Below are positions 678 through 24,753 of a stretch of 64,000 bases of DNA, in pieces. The stretch comes from a virus, in the IMG/VR virus record IMGVR_UViG_3300031339_000004, positions 1 through 64,000 of that record, one strand, 5' to 3'. Under the pieces are notes generated by a model. The model was not told where the DNA came from. It saw nothing but the letters and a program-made list of their open reading frames with translations, and ran no database searches. The first letter of the stretch is position 1. The number at the start of each line of letters is the position of its first letter. The translations under genes were made by a program, and so were the position numbers.

Positions 678-3600
678 TTAAATAGTTATCATAGTTTTTA
701 CTACTTTGTAAGTGTGTGAGTCTGCTGTGGCAGCAGTTGCCAGTAGGAAGACACTACCTCCAGAATATATTGCTGTAAAACTGGCCAGCGGATCTGCAGA
801 AGTATGAATTATTGCATACTCTACAAAATCTGCTGTAACGTTGCTATCATGCACTACTAGAATTTCCTGCGCTTGATAGTCACCTGTGCTGTTGTTTGTT
901 ACCTGTACTATCATCTTTGCAGACCTAAACTGCGACCCAACAAACGTAGACACTGTCTGCGGCGACGTAGAACTGAACGTTGAAGTTTCCGAATCTAAAA
1001 TAAAATCTTTAATTTGAAACGTATCAGTAACTTCTATACTACTAGCAGTAATCGAGTTAGACCAAGACGGTGATCCGCTTGTTGATGTTAAAATTGTATT
1101 CTCGACACCAATGGGCAATCGGCTCATACTGTCTGTGTTTGTAGATAACTCTGCCGCCGCAAATATTATATCACCAGCATTATAACTTTGTATGTTGGTG
1201 CCGCCCTTGTTTATAGGCACGCCTCTGTTTAGGTTTTCTGGATTAACGAAGAACGAACTTGGACTACCACCCAATGTTGCAGCATCCAGTGTGCCACCGT
1301 CTGCTGATGATGTTACATCAACTTCACCTTGTGGAGAAACAGTGAACTGGCTTTTATTAAACGACGATACGCCAATGTTAGTGTAGTCTACGTTGCCGGC
1401 TGCACTGCTTGTGGGTAATATTTCCAGCCTTAGATCGCCGTAGTAAAGGTTATCAGATCCAACTGTATTAGAGTCACCTACAAGATTTAATGGGCTGCCG
1501 GAGTCTATTCTAATAGTGCTAACCGCTTCGACCCAGACAGAATCTCCTCGTAAAAACGTACTAGTGTTTGCTGCACCGCTAGCTAGTCTCGACGGGGAAA
1601 TAATGCCTGATACTACGTTTGCTGCGTCTATATTTGTAGCAGACAATGAACTGTAATTATCCAAGTCTCTGCTTGAGGTGTCAGTTGTTCCGGCAATCTC
1701 TACATTCTGTAGAGTGAATGTTGCAGTTCCTGTGCCCGCCGATACAGTTAATGATTGTTCTGATTGTATTATGCCGTTTATGCTCTGTACAGCAAACCCT
1801 CTATCGTCGTGCAGTGTAAATGAGTTTGTAGTAAGCGCGCCAACGTAATAAAAATTGCCTGATACAAGACCGCCAGGCAGATCAGCTCCTCCTATTCTAA
1901 CAGGATCACCTACACTATACCCGTGGGAGTCTAATACTATTCTATTAGCAGAGAGTGATATTGTTCTCTTTCTAAAGATGTGTGTGCCTAGTTGGCTAGT
2001 AGTAAAATCTACCTTTTGAGCAGGATTTAGGTCATAACGAGAGTATACCTCGAAGCTAGTACTAGTTATTACCTTTACATAGAATATTCCCAATTGACTT
2101 AGCCCGCCTATTGAGGCGTTGCCATTGTTGTCATATTCGATTGGGTCACCATCAGTAAACCCGTGGCCACCGGAAACTATTATATATGAAACAGCATAAT
2201 CTATTTCTCCGTTAGAAGAGTCTCCGTCGAAACTAATAGAATTAAACGAAGTTAAGCTAGCAGTCGTTAGGTCCGGAGCATTATCATCTTCTATATAATC
2301 TCTTCTTGTATCTGATGCAGCAAATCTTATAAAGTTTCCAGTAATATCAATATACAATCTATTCTCAGTTGAAGTTACGCCAACAGTAAATGCATTGCCT
2401 CCTGATCTGCCACCAATAAGTGCGTCATCAGTTACCGTAAGAGTATCTCCTACAACATAGTTGGCGCCGCCTCTTCTTAAATCAATCTGAGTAACTTGAC
2501 CGGCAGATACTGTTATATCTGCTGTTGCACCAGCGCCGGCTCCAGTTGAACTGTCTAGCGCTACACTAAGATATGTGCCACTTGTGCTATATCCAGAACC
2601 GCTTGGCAAGTCACTGGCATCGATTAAGATTGATAGGCCCTGAACAAAATCAGTTATTTGACCTTGTGCTCGGTTAGCTGCTGACGTTACAGTAGCACCA
2701 ACAGTGAAGTCAAGAGCAGCGCCACCTTGCGGAGTATCTATTTGTAAGAATTGTGAGTCACCGTCGTCACTTAGGAAAAAGTTTTCCTGAAATTCTGCTT
2801 TAGCGCCAGCAGTAGTAACATACAGCCCTACTGGATCCTCAGTTCCGTTAATCTCTAGTGTATTGCCACTGCCTTGTATAAATTCACCAACTACGTTTAC
2901 TAGAACTACAGAAGTAGCAGAAGTAACAGCTTCTCTTACAAATCCTTCTGACCCAGTGCTAGCTTGAGAGATTCTATCTCCCTTTACTACTGTTATGGCT
3001 TGATCTACAGTAATAGATTGTTGCTGATAGACCTCAATAACAATATCACCACTCAACACTTCCTGTGGAGGGATATCGTCTACTAGTTCTAGCCTAGCCT
3101 CAAAGGAAGACAGATTGTATGAATTAAACGCTCTTGTAGGAGGAATTACATCAACATTTAATTGGCCTGACGAATTCAACTGTACAACAGCGCCTGGCAC
3201 CGCAGACGTAGCAACTCTTTTATCAAGAAAATCACCCAAACGGTTGTCCATGAACAGTCGTTGAGCAAGCTGAGTTGTCAGTCTATCGTGACTGGCGCCG
3301 CCTGGTTCATTATCGCCAAGACCCGGATCTTTTGATATTTGAGATATTGTTACGTCTGATAGACTAAGCGAGATCGAATCAAGACGTGCAATAGAAACTC
3401 GGTTTGCAAAGACTACATTACCTGTTCTGTTTTCTGCTCTTATGAAATTACCTACTTTAAAGTCGCCTAGCTCGTTTGTACCTGAAGCGTATACTCTACC
3501 AGGTAGATCTTCAAATTGCTCAAAGCGCTCTATACTTTGGCCACCGTTGCTAGGCAATGCATTGTAATCAGTACCTGATCCTGCATATTCCCATGTGTGA

Positions 3601-19718: not shown

Positions 19719-20153
19719 CTATTTTAATTTTTTGTTTTCTATTAGCGACTGTCTTAATTTTTCTGATCCGCCTACTCGAACATTGATAATACCGTTGTAA
19801 TATTCGTCAGTTTCGAGTACCTTGCGATCAAATTGCTCTTTTGCTTCAATGTAGGACATTTCTGATCTTGATTTACAAAAATAAAGTACTTCTCGAGTAA
19901 ATTGTTCTTGTCCTAGTGCCTCTACGTCAGCGTTTAATTTATCTGAAGAACCCCAATAGGTCCTCCAGTCGCTTTCTTTATAGCCTCTGCGTTTATTTTT
20001 TTTGCCTTTAAGTGGCGGCTTAGTAGTTTTAAACCTAGCCAACTTTTTGCCTATATATTTTTTGTTGGACTGAAGATTGGTAATGAGATACACAAATCCT
20101 TCATACTCGTCTGGTATCTCATCAATGTTTACGCCTTCATAGGTCCAATGCAT
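19719..20153 (-). CDS. GIY-YIG endonuclease, T4 endonuclease II (DenA)-like
   Basis: GFVYLITN...KYIGKK, ESDW..YWGSS, F.REVL..C, Y.E..EQF...VL....YYN. Confidence 0.8.
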   Translation of the reverse strand: MHWTYEGVNIDEIPDEYEGFVYLITNLQSNKKYIGKKLARFKTTKPPLKGKKNKRRGYKESDWRTYWGSSDKLNADVEALGQEQFTREVLYFCKSRSEMSYIEAKEQFDRKVLETDEYYNGIINVRVGGSEKLRQSLIENKKLK

Positions 20154-20178: not shown

Positions 20179-20430
20179 TCACTGCTGAGGTTTTGACTTA
20201 AAAACTTCTGGATGTACCTCTTGAAACTGCGCTCTTACTTCTGTGTTTCGTTGATGTGTGATTTTTTTTATTTTACGAAGCCGCTGTTGGAGATCGTAGT
20301 ACCTACGGTGGGTTCTCATTGCTTCCCACCGTTCCATTGAAGCAAAATAGTCTAGATATGCCTGTACCAGTTGTTGATGCAGGCTATCGTCAGGGTCTAA
20401 TTCTTTTTCAAACCTTTCGTCGTCGGTCAT
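20179..20430 (-). CDS. Hypothetical small helical protein
   Basis: ATGA overlap with the gp46 C-half stop codon. Confidence 0.6.
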   Translation of the reverse strand: MTDDERFEKELDPDDSLHQQLVQAYLDYFASMERWEAMRTHRRYYDLQQRLRKIKKITHQRNTEVRAQFQEVHPEVFKSKPQQ

Positions 20431-22424
20431 TGAGATGACTCCACTACATCTAAATCGTTCGCGTAAGTAGTAAATCCGTTTTCTTTAATAACTTTAAGAA
20501 CATGATTAACTCGACCGATTAGTTCGTCCTTGTGACTGATCAAAAAGATATTTTTTTCTCGTTCTCTGGCCATCTTCTTGAGTACGCTTAACGAACTCTC
20601 AACTCCTGCTGTGTCCATGCCGCTGTCTATGAGCTCATCAATGAACAGCAGGTTAACATTCTGATACAGACTCTCCCAAACGTCCCGGAAAGCAAAGCTA
20701 AGACCTAGTATAAGCCTGTTTCGTTCGCCTCGTGACAAGTTGTCAAAGTCAAGGTCTTGGCCTAATTGGGAGATCTCAACCGATAAGTCGTTTTGAAACT
20801 CAACTTGGTGAGGTAAACCTAGTTTGTCCAAGTAATGTGTAAGTCTGTTGTTCAAATACGCAAGGTTCTGGTCTATAATCTTTTTTCGTATGAAACTATC
20901 CTTGTTTGTAAGCAGCTTGAGAAGAAACTCTTGGTGCTCTCTGACGTTTGTTAGCTCGTTTACTGGCAGCCAGTTGATTTCTTGCAGTGCTGACGTCTGC
21001 AGGTCCGACACTTGCGCTTCGTAAGGATCTTCATCCTCTTGTCTTGCTGTCAGTGTGTTCTTTAGATTCTCAACGTTGCTTCTATGCTCGTATGCTTCCT
21101 TTGCACTGTCGTAGAATGTGTTGGGCTTACCGTTAAGCTCACCGATCTCTTCGATACCAGTCATTACCTTCTTTAGCTTATCTGCTACTTCTTTTTGGTA
21201 GCTAGTAGCATCAGCTAGTTCTTTTTCTTTAACCTTCTGGATCTCATCCTTCTTATCTGCGTGTAATTCTTGACCGCAAGTATAACAAGTGGCATCGTCT
21301 AGTTTAGAAATGTTCTTTTTTACTTTAGTTACAGCAGTATCTGCCCGTAATAGTGCAGTATCTAGTGTGCTCCTTTCCTTGTTGAGTGCAGTAACAGCAG
21401 TATTCATCTTTGACCAGTGTTGTAACTTCTCGTGGTCGTCGAGCTCTGACTCAATATTAAGCTTTTCTAATTGATCAATGCCTTCTTGAAGCCTTTTATT
21501 GTCTTGTTTCTTTTTTGACTGCCATGCACGTTGTCTGCTGACTAATGTGGCTATACTTTGCTCAATTTTGCCGTTTGCTGTCTTAATTGCGTCTATTTTT
21601 AGTGTTTCTTCAGTAATAGAGTCTTTGGTCATGCGCACTTGTTCTTTTAACAACATGGCCTTTTCGGTGAGTATAGTAATACCCAACAACTGTTCAATGA
21701 TAGCTCGTTGATCATTAGCTCTCATTGATAAGAACGGTTCGGTATAGGTGTTGAGAGCAACAATATGCTTGAACATGTCATGACTCATGCCTAGTAGGTC
21801 ATTAATTGTCTCTTGCGTCTTGCGACTGTCACCTTGGGACTCATCTGTCATGTCTTGTTCTGCATCATCTACATAAAACTTAAGAATGTTGGGGCTTCTG
21901 CCTCTTTCTATTCTATAGTCTACGTTATTCTTCTTAAAATGCAGAGTGACCAACATGTTTTTACTGTTGGTCTTATTAATAAGGTTATTCTTCTTAATAT
22001 TAGTTAACGCTTGGCCGTACAGCGCATAGCTGAGCGCGTTGATCACTGTGGTATTATGAGATAAGATATTGTTTGAGTAAAAACGATGATCAGGGTGATC
22101 AACTGTTAGATCAAACATATTTTCTTGCCGAGACTGTTCGATTACTGTTAATACTAATTCAGAACCGTGCTTAGATATTATCTTAGTCTGGTTAGGTATT
22201 ATATCTTTGACAAAGATCTCGTTGTAGTTGTGATCAAACAAGATGTGAGTGTCGGCACAGTCAAGAGTCAACCCGCTTTGGGTTTCGATATGCCAAACGG
22301 TGTATGGAATAGTCTTGTGTATGTCAGTAACAGGCTGCCATCCAGAATCTGTTTCGATTTCAAGATCAACTAAGCTGACACTATTAACAAATTTTCTATT
22401 TACTGTTTGAGAAATTGTAGACAT
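20427..22424 (-). CDS. gp46: C-intein (aa 1-124) fused to the C-extein of recombination ATPase gp46 (Rad50/SbcC-like)
   Basis: Intein block B (LDCADTHILF), block F (MFDLTVD...FYSN) and G (LSHN|T); then zinc hook CYTC, signature LSRGE, Walker B LFIDE, H-loop LISH. Confidence 0.92.
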   Translation of the reverse strand: MSTISQTVNRKFVNSVSLVDLEIETDSGWQPVTDIHKTIPYTVWHIETQSGLTLDCADTHILFDHNYNEIFVKDIIPNQTKIISKHGSELVLTVIEQSRQENMFDLTVDHPDHRFYSNNILSHNTTVINALSYALYGQALTNIKKNNLINKTNSKNMLVTLHFKKNNVDYRIERGRSPNILKFYVDDAEQDMTDESQGDSRKTQETINDLLGMSHDMFKHIVALNTYTEPFLSMRANDQRAIIEQLLGITILTEKAMLLKEQVRMTKDSITEETLKIDAIKTANGKIEQSIATLVSRQRAWQSKKKQDNKRLQEGIDQLEKLNIESELDDHEKLQHWSKMNTAVTALNKERSTLDTALLRADTAVTKVKKNISKLDDATCYTCGQELHADKKDEIQKVKEKELADATSYQKEVADKLKKVMTGIEEIGELNGKPNTFYDSAKEAYEHRSNVENLKNTLTARQEDEDPYEAQVSDLQTSALQEINWLPVNELTNVREHQEFLLKLLTNKDSFIRKKIIDQNLAYLNNRLTHYLDKLGLPHQVEFQNDLSVEISQLGQDLDFDNLSRGERNRLILGLSFAFRDVWESLYQNVNLLFIDELIDSGMDTAGVESSLSVLKKMAREREKNIFLISHKDELIGRVNHVLKVIKENGFTTYANDLDVVESSQ

Positions 22425-23506
22425 TTCTTTAATACTTCCTCTTTGTTTTGTTTATACTCATTTTCCCATATAACTAGTACGTCGTACCCTTGGGCTTCTG
22501 CAAATTGAATTTTTTCTCGGTCCAGTTTCCATTTTTCTGATGCTCGCAGTTTAGTTCTTGGATTCACATACTCCGGAGAATAAATTTTAGGATTACAATG
22601 CCAAAAGTCTCCATTGTATTCAATTATTTTATTAGCAACTGCTATGTCATAGACGTATTGTTTTTTAGAATTGATTGCTAGAGTAAGCTGATCTATAATT
22701 AGCAAACTTTTATCAATTTTTCTGATTTCGTATATTATTTCTCTTTCAGCGGCAGATACCGATACCCCTTTTGTAAGTTTAAGTCTATTCATTTCGGCTT
22801 TTTCTTCATCTGATTTAGCATTTAATGCGGCTTGCCATTTATCTTGACGTAGTTGCCAAACTCTAATTCCTTCCTCTTTTCCGTATTTTTCAATACATAT
22901 CTTCTTAGAAAAGTGTAGTTGTTCTTTAGATACTAATTTAGTTGCTTCTTCTTTAGTATATCCTCTGGCAGTATAGTATTCTGTACACCGCTTTGATGAC
23001 ACTCGACGAACAGGAGTAGCAGCTGAACCTACTGAACCTTTTTTATTGTTTGCTGTTTTGGTATCAGCTGCGAACTGGATTGCTTCTGTTTCACAATAGC
23101 CTTTCTTTATCCAATATTCTTTTCTAATGGGCCGTCGACTATTTCTTTCAAAGTCTGCTTCCTCTATAGTATAGTGTTTATTTGTAGCAGGATTACTTTT
23201 GTTTAACCAAAACTCTCGACTGTATACGCTTGTTGTGTTTTTTTGTGCGTGTTCCTTTGATTTTGTGTAAACCATGTTGGTATCCCACCCTCGACACTCC
23301 CAATAATTTCTAGAACGTTTTGTATAGCGCCCAGAAATTTTCAAGGTACTTCTAATAAAAATCTCAATTTCTTTTTTGGTATTGTTAACATTATCCAACA
23401 CCATGCTTTCTAGGAGAGACGATCGCATCGCCGGTTCTAGATTTTTGATAACTGTATCTATTACTTCGATACAGTTTTCTGTTAGTGTGTTATTCCATCG
23501 CGCCAT
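22400..23506 (-). mobile_element. Free-standing Vsr-like (PD-(D/E)XK type) putative homing endonuclease between the split-intein halves
   Basis: C-terminal YD....KIIEYNGDFWH.NP...D.EK...A...GY.VLVIWE Vsr/DUF559-like domain; own AGGAG SD; different reading frame from both gp46 halves. Confidence 0.8.
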
Positions 23507-23744
23507 TGTATAATTCTCCTATTGTAGTTTCGTAAATTACCCCAGTTTTGGTGTTTTTTACTTTTACAATAGTATTTATACAAAGGCACTTACCTGTGCC
23601 GTTGCGCGATCCGCTGTCATCACCACCTTGGTCTAGGTTTTCACCAAGAACCAGCGTTAGTTGCTCTCTACTGAAGTCTATGGCCTGTGAAACATTGCCT
23701 ACACTCATGAAATTCTTAACTGTTAAATCCTGAACCTGTATCAT
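23490..23744 (-). CDS. gp46: gp46 N-extein (aa 1-52, ends at Walker A GTGK) fused to a 32-aa N-intein
   Basis: VKNFMSVGN...LVLGEN...NGTGK followed by intein block A CLCINTIVKV...TIGELY, then stop. Confidence 0.9.
   Translation of the reverse strand: MIQVQDLTVKNFMSVGNVSQAIDFSREQLTLVLGENLDQGGDDSGSRNGTGKCLCINTIVKVKNTKTGVIYETTIGELYNGAME
23573..23580 (-). promoter_or_regulatory. Perfect T4 late promoter TATAAATA inside the N-intein coding sequence
   Basis: TGT ATA AAT ACT (C-I-N-T) contains TATAAATA, about 67 nt upstream of the endonuclease ATG. Confidence 0.6.
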
Positions 23745-23745
23745 A

Positions 23746-24753
23746 TCATTCTAATCCGTTGTAAATATCTAATAACATCTTTTTATCGTAGTTGTTAGTG
23801 TCTAGTTCGGTAATTTCCTTAGCAACAATCTGATCTACACTTTCAAATGCCCGGATGTCTAAGTCTGTGGACATTTCGTCTATTTGCTTTTGAGGAATCA
23901 ATGTAATTTCTCTACATCCATATTGATTGATGAATGTTTCTTTGATAAAACTTGCTTCTTCATAGCTAATAGGTAGATCCAGTGTTACTCGAAGATACAT
24001 TTTACTCTTAATTAAGGTATCTGCTTCATCAATTAGCTGTGAGAGCTTAACTGTTCGATATTTTGGACATTCTGGCCAATTGATAAATTCTGGCTCTCCG
24101 TTTTTCTCTAATATCATCATACCACGAGCATCGTCCCATGCATCAGCATAGTTATGTGGGAATGCATTGCCGATATAGTGTATCTTTCCTTGTGTTTGAC
24201 GTTTATGAAAGTGACCTGAGAACACATAGTCCTGGTTCTTAAAGTTTTTAGCTTTAAGTTCACCGTGGTCTGGCATCTGTACCATAGCATTCATGTAAAA
24301 GTGTGGTAATTCAAAGTGTCCGAACATGTACTTGGCTTTGATCTTTTGAATTTTCTTCCACTCGTCACCTACTAGCCACGGAATAAGAGCTACGTCGTCT
24401 TTTTCAAGAATTGAGTCAACAAAGGTAATGCCGGGAATGTGCCGACCAAAGCTCATTGAGCTAACGTCTCTCTTATCTTTGTAATATAGATCATGATTAC
24501 CTACAAACAGATAAAAGTTGTCAAATGCTGCCCCTAGCTTCTCCAAACTACGTATAGTTGCGTCCATTGTAGTGAGGTTTAACGAATTTCGGTTGTGATG
24601 CCAGTCTCCACAAAAGATTCCAGTTTCACAACCGTTGGCTTTTGCAGTTTCGATGAACCAGTCAACGAAATTCTCACAATCTTGGTTGTGTACTCGACTA
24701 TTACCCTTGAGCCCAAAGTGAATATCTGTAAAAACTGCTGCTTTATTGAACAA
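23746..24753 (-). CDS. gp47: Recombination nuclease gp47 (Mre11/SbcD-like)
   Basis: Metallophosphoesterase motifs TDIHFG, GDWHH, VGNHD, FGHFE, SGHFH; adjacent to gp46. Confidence 0.95.
   Translation of the reverse strand: MFNKAAVFTDIHFGLKGNSRVHNQDCENFVDWFIETAKANGCETGIFCGDWHHNRNSLNLTTMDATIRSLEKLGAAFDNFYLFVGNHDLYYKDKRDVSSMSFGRHIPGITFVDSILEKDDVALIPWLVGDEWKKIQKIKAKYMFGHFELPHFYMNAMVQMPDHGELKAKNFKNQDYVFSGHFHKRQTQGKIHYIGNAFPHNYADAWDDARGMMILEKNGEPEFINWPECPKYRTVKLSQLIDEADTLIKSKMYLRVTLDLPISYEEASFIKETFINQYGCREITLIPQKQIDEMSTDLDIRAFESVDQIVAKEITELDTNNYDKKMLLDIYNGLE

What the first reader, a model, noticed from the sequence alone, without database searches (positions are those of the whole stretch)
20427..23744. 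Fractured gp46 (Rad50/SbcC) gene: atypically split intein at Walker A with an intervening Vsr-like endonuclease
Seen: gp46 is in two genes. The first ends ...NGTGK|CLCINTIVKV...GAME* (IntN of 32 aa, 23493-23588). The second starts with a 124-aa IntC (22053-22424; block B His, block F Asp, terminal HN) followed by |TTVINALSYALYG. Joining the exteins restores the Walker A GTGKTT. A 368-aa endonuclease ORF in another frame lies between and overlaps both halves, and purine-rich SD-like sequences precede both the endonuclease and the C-half. Known: phage 'fractured genes' with split inteins plus free-standing endonucleases, and short-IntN atypical inteins (AceL-TerL type), have been described. Inference: gp46 is assembled by protein trans-splicing. 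The split falls just after block A instead of at the usual endonuclease loop, the +1 nucleophile is Thr, and block B reads AxxH instead of TxxH. I do not recall this combination in a Rad50-family host, but novelty needs a search. A 32-aa IntN is chemically synthesisable and so of protein-engineering interest.
Basis: partly seen in the sequence, partly recalled or inferred. Interest (0 to 1): 0.92.

Follow-up and report, generated by a model that had tools for sequence, protein, structure and literature searches.

The report
Split-intein gp46 with homing endonuclease
A salt-lake phage carries its essential Rad50-like repair gene (gp46) in two pieces, each ending or starting with half of a self-splicing intein, with a selfish endonuclease gene between them; the arrangement is of a known kind, but this host gene appears not to have been described.

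Summary
On the minus strand, gp46 is broken exactly inside Walker A (GTGK|TT). The pieces are an 84-aa ORF (52-aa N-extein plus 32-aa IntN), a 368-aa endonuclease ORF and a 665-aa ORF (124-aa IntC plus 541-aa C-extein). The overlaps are 17 and 25 nt.

- **Precise insertion:** 62 unique uninterrupted gp46 alleles in close relatives join the two exteins with no gap.
- **Not an artefact:** the same three-ORF layout recurs in dozens of diverged phage contigs and in two independent assemblies.
- **Functional halves:** the catalytic residues are invariant, and both halves are under purifying selection (dN/dS 0.17 for IntC, 0.28 for IntN).
- **Intein fold:** an AlphaFold model of a relative's intein halves matches solved inteins best. 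The top hit is VidaL, itself atypically split.
- **Endonuclease:** its C-terminal domain matches Vsr and I-Bth0305I (Z about 11), so it belongs to the EDxHD family known from fractured genes.

Trans-splicing is therefore very likely, but it was not tested. The kind is known: fractured genes (Dassa 2009) and short-IntN inteins such as AceL/GOS-TerL and VidaL. I found no paper naming gp46/Rad50 as a host.

The same intein and endonuclease pair also sits at GK|S/T in TerL, DnaB-like, gp44, RecA and ResIII genes. The IntN codons also carry TATAAATA and a hairpin that covers the endonuclease start codon.

Verdict: new member of a known kind, of moderate interest. The scan's own notes flagged this same stretch from another window.

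The parts
23589..23744 (-). gp46 (Rad50/SbcC-like) N-extein, 52 aa, ending in Walker A ...NGTGK
   Evidence: One search gives the ORF. phrog_77 E 2e-05. 79-88% identical to the N-termini of uninterrupted gp46 alleles, ending exactly at the junction.
23493..23588 (-). IntN, 32 aa (CLCINT...ELYNGAME); the stop is at 23490-23492
   Evidence: Cys1 is invariant in 43 aligned N-halves. At least 503 protein clusters share this N-half. dN/dS 0.28. The matching segment of a relative is modelled with pLDDT about 91.
23573..23580 (-). TATAAATA (T4-type late-promoter consensus) written in IntN codons C-I-N-T
   Evidence: locates it. Present in full in 11 of 17 unique gp46 loci and as ATAAATA in 5 more. 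Ile is always ATA and Asn always AAT where those residues occur, against 20% and 56% usage in the C-exteins of the same loci. Promoter function is inferred only.
23500..23589 (-). RNA hairpin spanning the IntN coding sequence. The 5' arm (UUGUAUAA, inside TATAAATA) pairs with UUAUACAA just 5' of the endonuclease AUG; the outer helix continues with UGGCGC, which contains the UG of that AUG, pairing with the 5' GUGCC.
   Evidence: dG -30.1 kcal/mol, z -6.05, 0 of 200 shuffles as stable. The outer stem is kept in 11 loci, mostly without covariation.
23516..23520 (-). AGGAG Shine-Dalgarno for the endonuclease, 9 nt before ATG 23506
22400..23506 (-). Free-standing homing endonuclease gene, 368 aa. 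Helical N-terminal region with repeated YW..RGW-like modules, and an EDxHD/Vsr-like nuclease domain (residues about 248-368, nt 22403-22765).
   Evidence: phrog_22677 E 2e-19. At least 265 clusters. Invariant D287, E296, G299, D300, H303, W347, E348. AF2 pLDDT 86.6. Vsr 1cw0 Z 11.3 and I-Bth0305I 3r3p Z 11.2.
22435..22443 (-). AAGAGGAAG Shine-Dalgarno for the C-half, inside the endonuclease 3' coding end (codons ..NKEEV..)
   Evidence: The NKEE codons are conserved across endonuclease homologues.
22053..22424 (-). IntC, 124 aa (MSTISQ...ILSHN), carrying blocks B, F and G
   Evidence: Invariant A57, D58, H60, D105, H113, S122, H123, N124. dN/dS 0.165. PDB sequence hits VidaL E 0.0055 and gp41-1 E 0.0057. 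PF14890 is sub-threshold at 19.4 bits.
20427..22052 (-). gp46 C-extein, 541 aa, starting TTVINALSYALYG (rest of Walker A), with the zinc-hook CxxC and the signature/Walker B region
   Evidence: phrog_77 E 7e-87. 48.7% identity to PA5oct gp46 from residue 125 on. C380 and C383 are invariant.
23746..24753 (-). gp47 (SbcD/Mre11-like nuclease), the partner of gp46, immediately upstream
   Evidence: phrog_100 E 1.7e-69 and Metallophos.

Best explanation
This is a 'fractured' gp46 gene. A composite mobile element (IntN, a free-standing EDxHD/Vsr-like homing endonuclease gene, and IntC) sits exactly between the Lys and Thr codons of the Walker A motif. Three proteins are made.

- **Splicing (inferred).** gp46N-IntN (84 aa) and IntC-gp46C (665 aa) find each other through the intein halves. 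The 32-aa IntN supplies the first strands and helix of the HINT fold. A class-1 trans-splicing reaction then follows, using Cys1, block-B His60, block-F Asp105, His123-Asn124 and Thr+1. It ligates GTGK to TTVINA and yields a normal 593-aa Rad50-like ATPase that works with the adjacent gp47.
- **Homing (inferred).** The endonuclease cuts intein-free gp46 alleles of co-infecting relatives at the P-loop-coding DNA, and repair copies the whole element in.
- **Expression signals (sequence shown, function inferred).** They are written into coding sequence. The IntN codons carry TATAAATA, a hairpin over the endonuclease AUG, and the endonuclease SD. The endonuclease 3' end carries the SD and ATG of the C-half.

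Shown here: the anatomy, the precise insertion, the conservation, the purifying selection and the predicted folds.
For: - **Precise insertion.** 80 closest loci (62 unique sites) have the N-extein and C-extein adjoining, reading RNGTGK|TTIINA.
- **Recurrence.** The same three-ORF layout is found with exteins down to 42% identity and endonucleases down to 36%. There are at least 503 N-half, 255 IntC-bearing and 265 endonuclease clusters.
- **Conserved chemistry.** The catalytic residues are invariant.
- **Selection.** dN/dS is 0.165 for IntC and 0.28 for IntN.
- **Cis forms exist.** Contiguous mini-intein versions of the same intein occur in gp46 (P0091, P0058, P0061). One locus (L091) has lost the endonuclease and keeps the halves one TAA apart.
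- **Intein fold.** The AF2 model of that locus has pLDDT 79.9 overall and about 91 over IntN. All its top PDB matches are inteins, led by VidaL at E 2.3e-9.
- **Endonuclease fold.** Vsr Z 11.3 and I-Bth0305I Z 11.2.
- **Independent assemblies** show no junction indels.
- **Single copy.** No second gp46 is present in the 77-kb record.
- **Nucleotide-level constraint and hairpin** in IntN, matching the control elements described for fractured genes (PMC2677866).
Against: - No splicing product, junction peptide or RNA was observed, and the IntN-IntC complex could not be predicted directly.
- Standard intein HMMs score the window's IntC below their cut-offs.
- Block B has Ala instead of the usual Thr.
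- The record is only about 21% complete, so another gp46 copy elsewhere in the genome cannot be excluded.
- TATAAATA and ATAAATA are not enriched in the window.
- The hairpin lies inside a translated ORF, so its regulatory role is uncertain.
Confidence: 0.85

Rival explanations
1. The intein halves only bring the two gp46 fragments together. The ATPase would work as a non-covalent two-chain complex without peptide ligation, as in the intein-less fragmented NrdA of phage Aeh1.
For: Fragmented phage genes assembled without splicing are documented (PMC3045599). Dassa et al. also found an SbcD-like gene fractured by a Vsr-like endonuclease with no intein (PMC2677866). Splicing was not observed here.
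Against: Every residue needed for splicing chemistry is invariant or nearly so across diverged alleles: Cys1, His60, Asp105, His123, Asn124 and Thr/Ser+1. That is not expected if only docking mattered. The break also lies inside the P-loop, which must be one continuous chain to bind ATP.
Confidence: 0.07
2. The locus is a decaying, non-functional gp46 that a selfish endonuclease disrupted. Another copy, or the host SbcCD, would supply the function.
For: The record is about 21% complete, so a second copy cannot be ruled out. Endonuclease-degraded variants exist (L094).
Against: Both intein halves and both exteins are under purifying selection. All three ORFs are intact. The layout persists across hosts whose exteins differ by more than 50%. 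No second copy lies in 77 kb.
Confidence: 0.03
3. Assembly or sequencing artefact: two compensating indels break one continuous ORF that holds an ordinary endonuclease-containing intein.
Against: Independent assemblies from other studies have the same frames, with no indel at 23490-23506 or 22400-24. Dozens of diverged loci share the same stops, starts and overlaps. The endonuclease frame has its own SD and ATG.
Confidence: 0.01

Closest known systems
Fractured genes (Dassa et al. 2009, PMC2677866): phage genes split by a split intein with a free-standing GIY-YIG or Vsr-like endonuclease between the halves
   Same: Same order: N-extein with IntN, then endonuclease, then IntC with C-extein. The endonuclease is Vsr-like. 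Its 3' end overlaps the downstream half (6-69 bp there, 25 nt here). TATAAATA plus a hairpin lie upstream of the endonuclease start. Endonuclease-less derivatives exist.
   Different: gp46/Rad50 is not among their eight host types; they report an SbcD-like gene fractured without an intein. Their well-known inteins (gp41-1, NrdJ-1, IMPDH-1) are split at the canonical site. Here the promoter-like motif, hairpin and SD lie inside the IntN coding sequence rather than in an untranslated spacer.
AceL-TerL and GOS-TerL atypically split inteins (Thiel 2014; Bachmann & Mootz 2015, as summarised in PMC11766414 and PMC13014065)
   Same: Naturally split with a short IntN (25 and 37 aa; 32 here) and a long IntC (104 and 115 aa; 124 here). 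The split follows the first helix (S2 position), and the model's IntN likewise ends in a helix. Both are phage P-loop ATPase hosts. AceL-TerL also has Cys1.
   Different: The host is gp46, not TerL. The +1 residue is Thr, not Cys. Sequence similarity to the Cat consensus of that family is marginal (6dsl_B, E 0.35). TerL-hosted relatives of the present intein have T or S at +1.
VidaL intein (PDB 6vgv)
   Same: It is the nearest solved structure by sequence (E 0.0055; E 6e-5 for a helicase-hosted relative) and by fold (Foldseek E 2.3e-9, TM 0.75). It is also atypically split, cysteine-dependent and from a saline-lake metagenome phage gene.
   Different: VidaL is split after strand beta2 (S1, 16-aa IntN; PMC13014065). 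Identity is only about 22%.
I-Bth0305I, prototype of the EDxHD homing endonucleases (PMC3239194, PDB 3r3p)
   Same: The C-terminal nuclease domain superposes (Z 11.2, rmsd 2.8 A over 93 of 97 residues). E..GD.WH-type motif residues are conserved. A separate N-terminal region is presumed to bind DNA.
   Different: I-Bth0305I is encoded in a group I intron of recA. No sequence-level hit was found. The N-terminal region here is longer (about 245 aa) with its own repeated modules.
Contiguous intein in gp46 of Salicola phage SCTP-2 (gene 539, annotated hypothetical)
   Same: Same host gene and the same insertion point, GK|T(T).
   Different: It is a large contiguous intein starting with Ala and holding a LAGLIDADG-like segment. 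It is not split and is unrelated in sequence to the window's intein.

Membership tests
Intein (HINT splicing domain, class 1) | Cys/Ser/Thr nucleophile at intein position 1 | tested here: met
   Cys53 of the N-half (intein Cys1) is invariant in 43 sequences.
Intein (HINT splicing domain, class 1) | Block B TxxH | tested here: inconclusive
   His60 is invariant, but the Thr position is an invariant Ala (A57-D58-T59-H60). This is a variant of the motif, not its loss.
Intein (HINT splicing domain, class 1) | Block F Asp and block G His-Asn, followed by a Cys/Ser/Thr at +1 | tested here: met
   D105, H113, S122, H123 and N124 are invariant. T125 is kept in at least 90% of sequences and is Ser in others.
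Intein (HINT splicing domain, class 1) | HINT fold | tested here: met
   The model is of a relative (L091, IntC 69% identical), read through its single TAA. pLDDT is 79.9, and all 40+ top PDB matches are inteins or BIL domains. The window's own halves were not folded together.
Intein (HINT splicing domain, class 1) | Match to curated intein HMMs above cut-off | tested here: not met
   PF14890 scores 19.4 bits (cut-off 35.8). TIGR01443 scores 11.7 bits for the window (cut-off 15.6), although relatives pass at 21.6-22.4 bits. This is a sensitivity limit of the models, not a defining biochemical feature.
Intein (HINT splicing domain, class 1) | Precise in-frame insertion relative to intein-free alleles | tested here: met
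   62 unique empty sites read RNGTGK|TTIINA.
Intein (HINT splicing domain, class 1) | Protein splicing activity | not testable with these tools
   Needs expression with western blot or MS.
Fractured gene / naturally split intein | Two host-gene ORFs, each with its own stop or start, and a free-standing endonuclease ORF between them | tested here: met
   Reproduced in independent assemblies and in diverged loci.
Atypically split intein (short IntN) | IntN of roughly 15-37 aa, with the split upstream of block B | tested here: met
   IntN is 32 aa and block B lies in IntC. The model shows three short strands followed by a helix before the break, which is S2-like (PMC13014065).
EDxHD / Vsr-like homing endonuclease | Vsr-type nuclease fold | tested here: met
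   1cw0 Z 11.3 (rmsd 2.9 A over 111 residues), 3r3p Z 11.2, 3hrl Z 10.4.
EDxHD / Vsr-like homing endonuclease | Conserved E, D, H, D catalytic motif residues | tested here: met
   E296, D300, H303 and D287 are invariant, and D329 is kept in at least 90% of 37 homologues. The profile aligns EYNGDFWH with Vsr's GCFWHHH. The assignment of each residue to a catalytic role is inferred.
EDxHD / Vsr-like homing endonuclease | Site-specific cleavage of the intein-free allele | not testable with these tools
   Needs an in vitro cleavage assay.
Rad50/SbcC (T4 gp46) ATPase | ABC-type ATPase head with Walker A, a coiled coil with a CxxC zinc hook, and a neighbouring Mre11/SbcD partner | tested here: met
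   phrog_77 E 7e-87 and a weak Rad50_zn_hook match. C380 and C383 are invariant. Walker A is restored across the junction. gp47 is adjacent.

The most novel reading that the evidence does not exclude
The window shows one member of a large composite mobile element that has not been described as such: an atypically split intein welded to an EDxHD endonuclease. Under this reading the element targets the Walker A GK|S/T junction in general and has moved repeatedly between unrelated phage ATPases (gp46, TerL, DnaB-like helicase, gp44 clamp loader, RecA/UvsX, ResIII helicase). The 96-nt IntN coding sequence would double as the endonuclease's control cassette, holding a late promoter, an AUG-sequestering hairpin and the SD. 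That dual use would explain why this family is split so close to its N-terminus.
Probability: 0.35. Interest if true: 0.6.

Novelty: new member of a known kind. Interest (0 to 1): 0.45.

Why it matters
**For phage biology.** The P-loop of an essential recombination ATPase tolerates a split-intein and endonuclease element. The same element family has colonised the P-loops of at least six ATPase families, which illustrates ectopic homing through a shared nucleotide-binding motif.

**For annotation.** Hundreds of such gp46 halves sit in databases as 'hypothetical protein' or truncated SbcC, because standard intein HMMs miss them.

**For protein engineering.** This adds a natural Cys1/Thr+1 intein with a 32-aa IntN, and many natural variants and cis forms, to a short list of atypically split inteins. 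It is neither the shortest nor cysteine-less, so its practical value depends on kinetics that remain unmeasured.

Tried and rejected
- **Complex prediction** for IntC with IntN was not available (not counted). I folded a relative's halves instead, read through their single TAA.
- **Megablast** of the locus against the phage collection gave no match.
- **phmmer** of the endonuclease against PDB found nothing useful, and its profile gave only marginal Vsr hits (E 0.2-0.6). The fold comparison was needed.
- **Pfam** at default settings did not call the intein.
- **No RNA holder listed** for the stretch, so expression and the transcript 5' end could not be examined. All laid runs were contigs, not raw reads.
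- **Motif enrichment:** TATAAATA (3 against 6 expected) and ATAAATA (16 against 19 expected) are not enriched in the window. Promoter use in this phage has no support from enrichment.
- **Papers not held:** PMC4661395 (GOS-TerL) and PMC7275667 (VidaL). Direct comparison with the AceL/GOS-TerL sequences was therefore not possible. A TerL-hosted relative did not hit the Cat consensus at E <= 1.
- **Sequencing-error rival:** rejected.
- **Search for other out-of-frame endonuclease cases** like L108: none among 78 endonuclease ORFs.
Full report
**Observation.** The minus strand holds three ORFs exactly as described.
- 23490-23744: 84 aa.
- 22400-23506: 368 aa.
- 20427-22424: 665 aa.

The first ends ...SRNGTGK followed by CLCINTIVKVKNTKTGVIYETTIGELYNGAME and a TAA. 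The third begins with 124 residues ending ILSHN and continues TTVINALSYALYG. The middle ORF is in another frame and overlaps its neighbours by 17 and 25 nt. AGGAG lies 9 nt before its ATG, and AAGAGGAAG lies 10 nt before the ATG of the C-half.

The flanking genes are a gp47/SbcD homologue and a gp55-like late sigma factor. The record is a 77-kb IMG/VR virus fragment, about 21% complete, from a salt-lake metagenome. Its nearest cultured relatives by gp46 are jumbo phages: PA5oct at 48.7%, then Phosso, Atu_ph07 and SCTP-2.

**Is it a precise insertion?** Yes. The 80 IMG/VR loci with the most similar gp46 (C-extein 72-79% identical) all have an uninterrupted gene. In these, the codon for N-extein residue 52 is followed directly by the codon for C-extein residue 1. 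The 62 unique empty sites all encode RNGTGK|TT(I)INA, with variation only at third codon positions. PA5oct gp46 reads NGTGKTAKLNALSYALFG. The inserted 1,536 nt (22053-23588) therefore interrupt Walker A between Lys and Thr.

**Is it real?** Contigs from two other studies (X3, a 2017 hypersaline lake; X4, 2024) cover the locus at about 95% identity. X3 does so in one piece. Their only gaps are two compensating +1/-1 pairs far from either junction.

The same layout also recurs widely, with the IntN ORF ending shortly after the endonuclease ATG and the endonuclease stop just after the IntC ATG. I found it in 24 loci using IntC as the query, and in about 30 gp46 loci using the endonuclease as the query. 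In these loci the exteins fall to 42% identity and the endonucleases to 36%. At the protein level there are at least 503 clusters of N-halves, 255 of IntC-bearing proteins and 265 of the endonuclease. Nearly all are unnamed.

**Is it an intein?**
- **Conserved residues.** Cys1 is invariant. In IntC, A57, D58, H60 (block B), D105, H113 (block F) and S122, H123, N124 (block G) are invariant. The +1 residue is Thr in at least 90% of sequences and Ser otherwise.
- **Selection.** Both halves evolve under purifying selection, with median dN/dS of 0.165 for IntC and 0.28 for IntN.
- **Cis-splicing forms.** Contiguous versions of the same intein, without an endonuclease, exist in gp46 of other metagenomic phages (P0091 749 aa, P0058, P0061).
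- **An intermediate.** One locus (L091) has lost all but 40 codons of the endonuclease. Its two halves are left in the same frame, separated by a single TAA.
- **Fold.** The complex predictor was unavailable. I therefore folded the L091 halves read through that stop (P0363), using an alignment of halves and cis forms. The model has pLDDT 79.9, about 91 over IntN and 88-96 over most of IntC, with only the linker disordered. Foldseek returns inteins only. The top hit is the atypically split VidaL intein (E 2.3e-9, TM 0.75), followed by TFIIB, RadA, gp41-1, Cat, PolB16 and others.
- **Sequence hits.** By sequence, the window's IntC hits VidaL (E 0.0055), gp41-1 (0.0057) and Cat (0.35).
- **Curated HMMs under-call it.** PF14890 scores 19.4 bits against a cut-off of 35.8. 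TIGR01443 scores 11.7 bits against 15.6. This explains the lack of annotation.

In the model, IntN forms three short strands and the start of a helix before the break. That corresponds to the S2 position described for AceL-TerL and GOS-TerL, rather than the S1 position of VidaL and PolB16 (PMC13014065).

**The endonuclease.** Its AF2 model is confident (pLDDT 86.6). It has a helical N-terminal region of about 245 residues and a C-terminal alpha/beta domain.
- **Nuclease domain.** Residues 248-368 superpose on Vsr (1cw0, Z 11.3, rmsd 2.9 A over 111 residues). They also superpose on the catalytic domain of I-Bth0305I (3r3p, Z 11.2, 93 of 97 residues) and on a DUF559 protein (Z 10.4).
- **Motif.** D287, E296, G299, D300, H303, W347 and E348 are invariant in 37 homologues. 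The motif EYNGDFWH aligns with Vsr's GCFWHHH.
- **Family.** This is the EDxHD family that Dassa et al. found in half of their fractured genes and that Taylor et al. characterised (PMC2677866, PMC3239194).

A DNA-binding role for the N-terminal region, with its repeated YW..RGW-like modules, is inferred by analogy only.

**Wider family.** The endonuclease and the IntC family travel together. About 65 of the 80 endonuclease loci have an IntC-family match just downstream. The hosts are not only gp46. Pfam identifies TerL, DnaB-like helicases, a gp44 clamp loader, a ResIII helicase and a RecA/UvsX homologue. Wherever the N-side is visible, the junction is GK|S/T of Walker A. For TerL this is K166/T167 of T4 gp17.

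An IntC tree groups sequences largely by host. Well-supported branches still force at least five changes for the gp46 label. One example is a gp46 clade nested among TerL inteins with 96/81 support. The tree rests on 124 columns, and many forks are unresolved.

Extein switching through a shared nucleotide-binding site has been proposed for actinophage inteins (bioRxiv 10.1101/2025.01.02.630785). P-loop hot spots for inteins are also known (PMC4760082, PMC5050341).

**Expression signals.** The IntN codons C-I-N-T spell TATAAATA at 23573-23580.
- **Codon constraint.** Across 17 unique gp46 loci the Ile codon is always ATA, and the Asn codon is AAT in all 16 loci that have Asn. The same loci use ATA for 20% of Ile codons and AAT for 56% of Asn codons in their C-exteins. 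Synonymous divergence is also lower in IntN (pS 0.51) than in IntC or the N-extein (0.73-0.79).
- **Hairpin.** The RNA 23500-23589 folds into a hairpin of -30.1 kcal/mol (z -6.05). UUGUAUAA, inside the motif, pairs with UUAUACAA immediately 5' of the endonuclease AUG. The outer stem is kept in 11 loci, mostly by conservation rather than covariation.
- **Precedent.** Fractured genes and the Aeh1 mobE gene have the same combination of a late promoter inside a hairpin that sequesters the start site (PMC2677866).
- **Caveats.** Here the elements lie within a translated ORF. The motif is not enriched in this window. No RNA data exist. The nucleotide-level constraint is therefore shown, while its regulatory meaning is inferred. 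The one endonuclease-less locus (L091) has the motif broken, reading TACAAATA. That is a single data point.

**Mechanism and rivals.** The best-supported reading is protein trans-splicing of the two halves into a 593-aa gp46, with the endonuclease driving homing into empty alleles. I put this at 0.85.
- **Non-covalent assembly** without ligation (0.07) is disfavoured, because residues that matter only for chemistry are strictly conserved and because the break lies inside the P-loop.
- **A decaying gene** (0.03) conflicts with purifying selection, intact ORFs and the absence of a second copy in 77 kb.
- **An artefact** is excluded.

**Novelty.**
- **Already known.** The layout, the endonuclease family, short natural IntN fragments (15-37 aa) and Thr at +1 are all published.
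- **Apparently undescribed.** I found no paper in the searchable library that reports an intein in gp46, Rad50 or SbcC. Important subscription papers could not be read. SCTP-2 carries an unrelated contiguous intein at the same gp46 site, annotated only as hypothetical.
- **Verdict.** The finding is a new member of a known kind. The possibly new points are the breadth of the P-loop-targeting family and the use of the IntN coding sequence as the endonuclease's control region.

Noticed in passing
L003:2352-5117 (Salicola phage SCTP-2 gene 539, MF360958.1): The gp46 homologue (921 aa, annotated hypothetical) holds a contiguous intein of about 340 aa at the very same GK|T site. It begins with Ala, ends THN|TT and has a LAGLIDADG-like segment. 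It is a different intein occupying the same hot spot.
   Followed up: partly
L108:2280-5153 (IMGVR_UViG_3300013126_002828): A TerL ORF with this intein family runs unbroken through the 840-nt Vsr-like endonuclease gene (2677-3516), which is read in another frame. The host frame has 0 stops, against a mean of 21 in 20,000 codon shuffles. This is a sense-strand, out-of-frame endonuclease inside a contiguous intein, and the only case among 78 endonuclease ORFs.
   Followed up: partly
Loci L131-L188 (IMG/VR): The same IntC and EDxHD endonuclease pair sits at Walker A GK|S/T of TerL, DnaB-like helicases, a gp44 clamp loader, a ResIII helicase and a RecA/UvsX homologue. The IntC tree requires several host switches.
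   Followed up: partly
window 22378-22419 (run X1, record 2): A 233-nt, low-depth contig (2.9 against 55) from the probable source sample joins sequence encoding the IntN end (..GDLYNA) directly to the IntC start. This suggests an endonuclease-less allele of a related phage in the same community.
   Followed up: no
L091:3333-3872: A gp46 locus in which the endonuclease is deleted to a 40-codon remnant. IntN and IntC are left in one frame, separated by a single TAA, and the TATAAATA motif is broken (TACAAATA).
   Followed up: partly
window 19719-20153 (-): A 144-aa ORF two genes downstream of gp46 matches phrog_447 and homing-endonuclease phrogs (GIY-YIG-like). It is a second selfish nuclease near the locus, next to the 19.2-19.7 kb non-coding gap that another note flags.
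   Followed up: no
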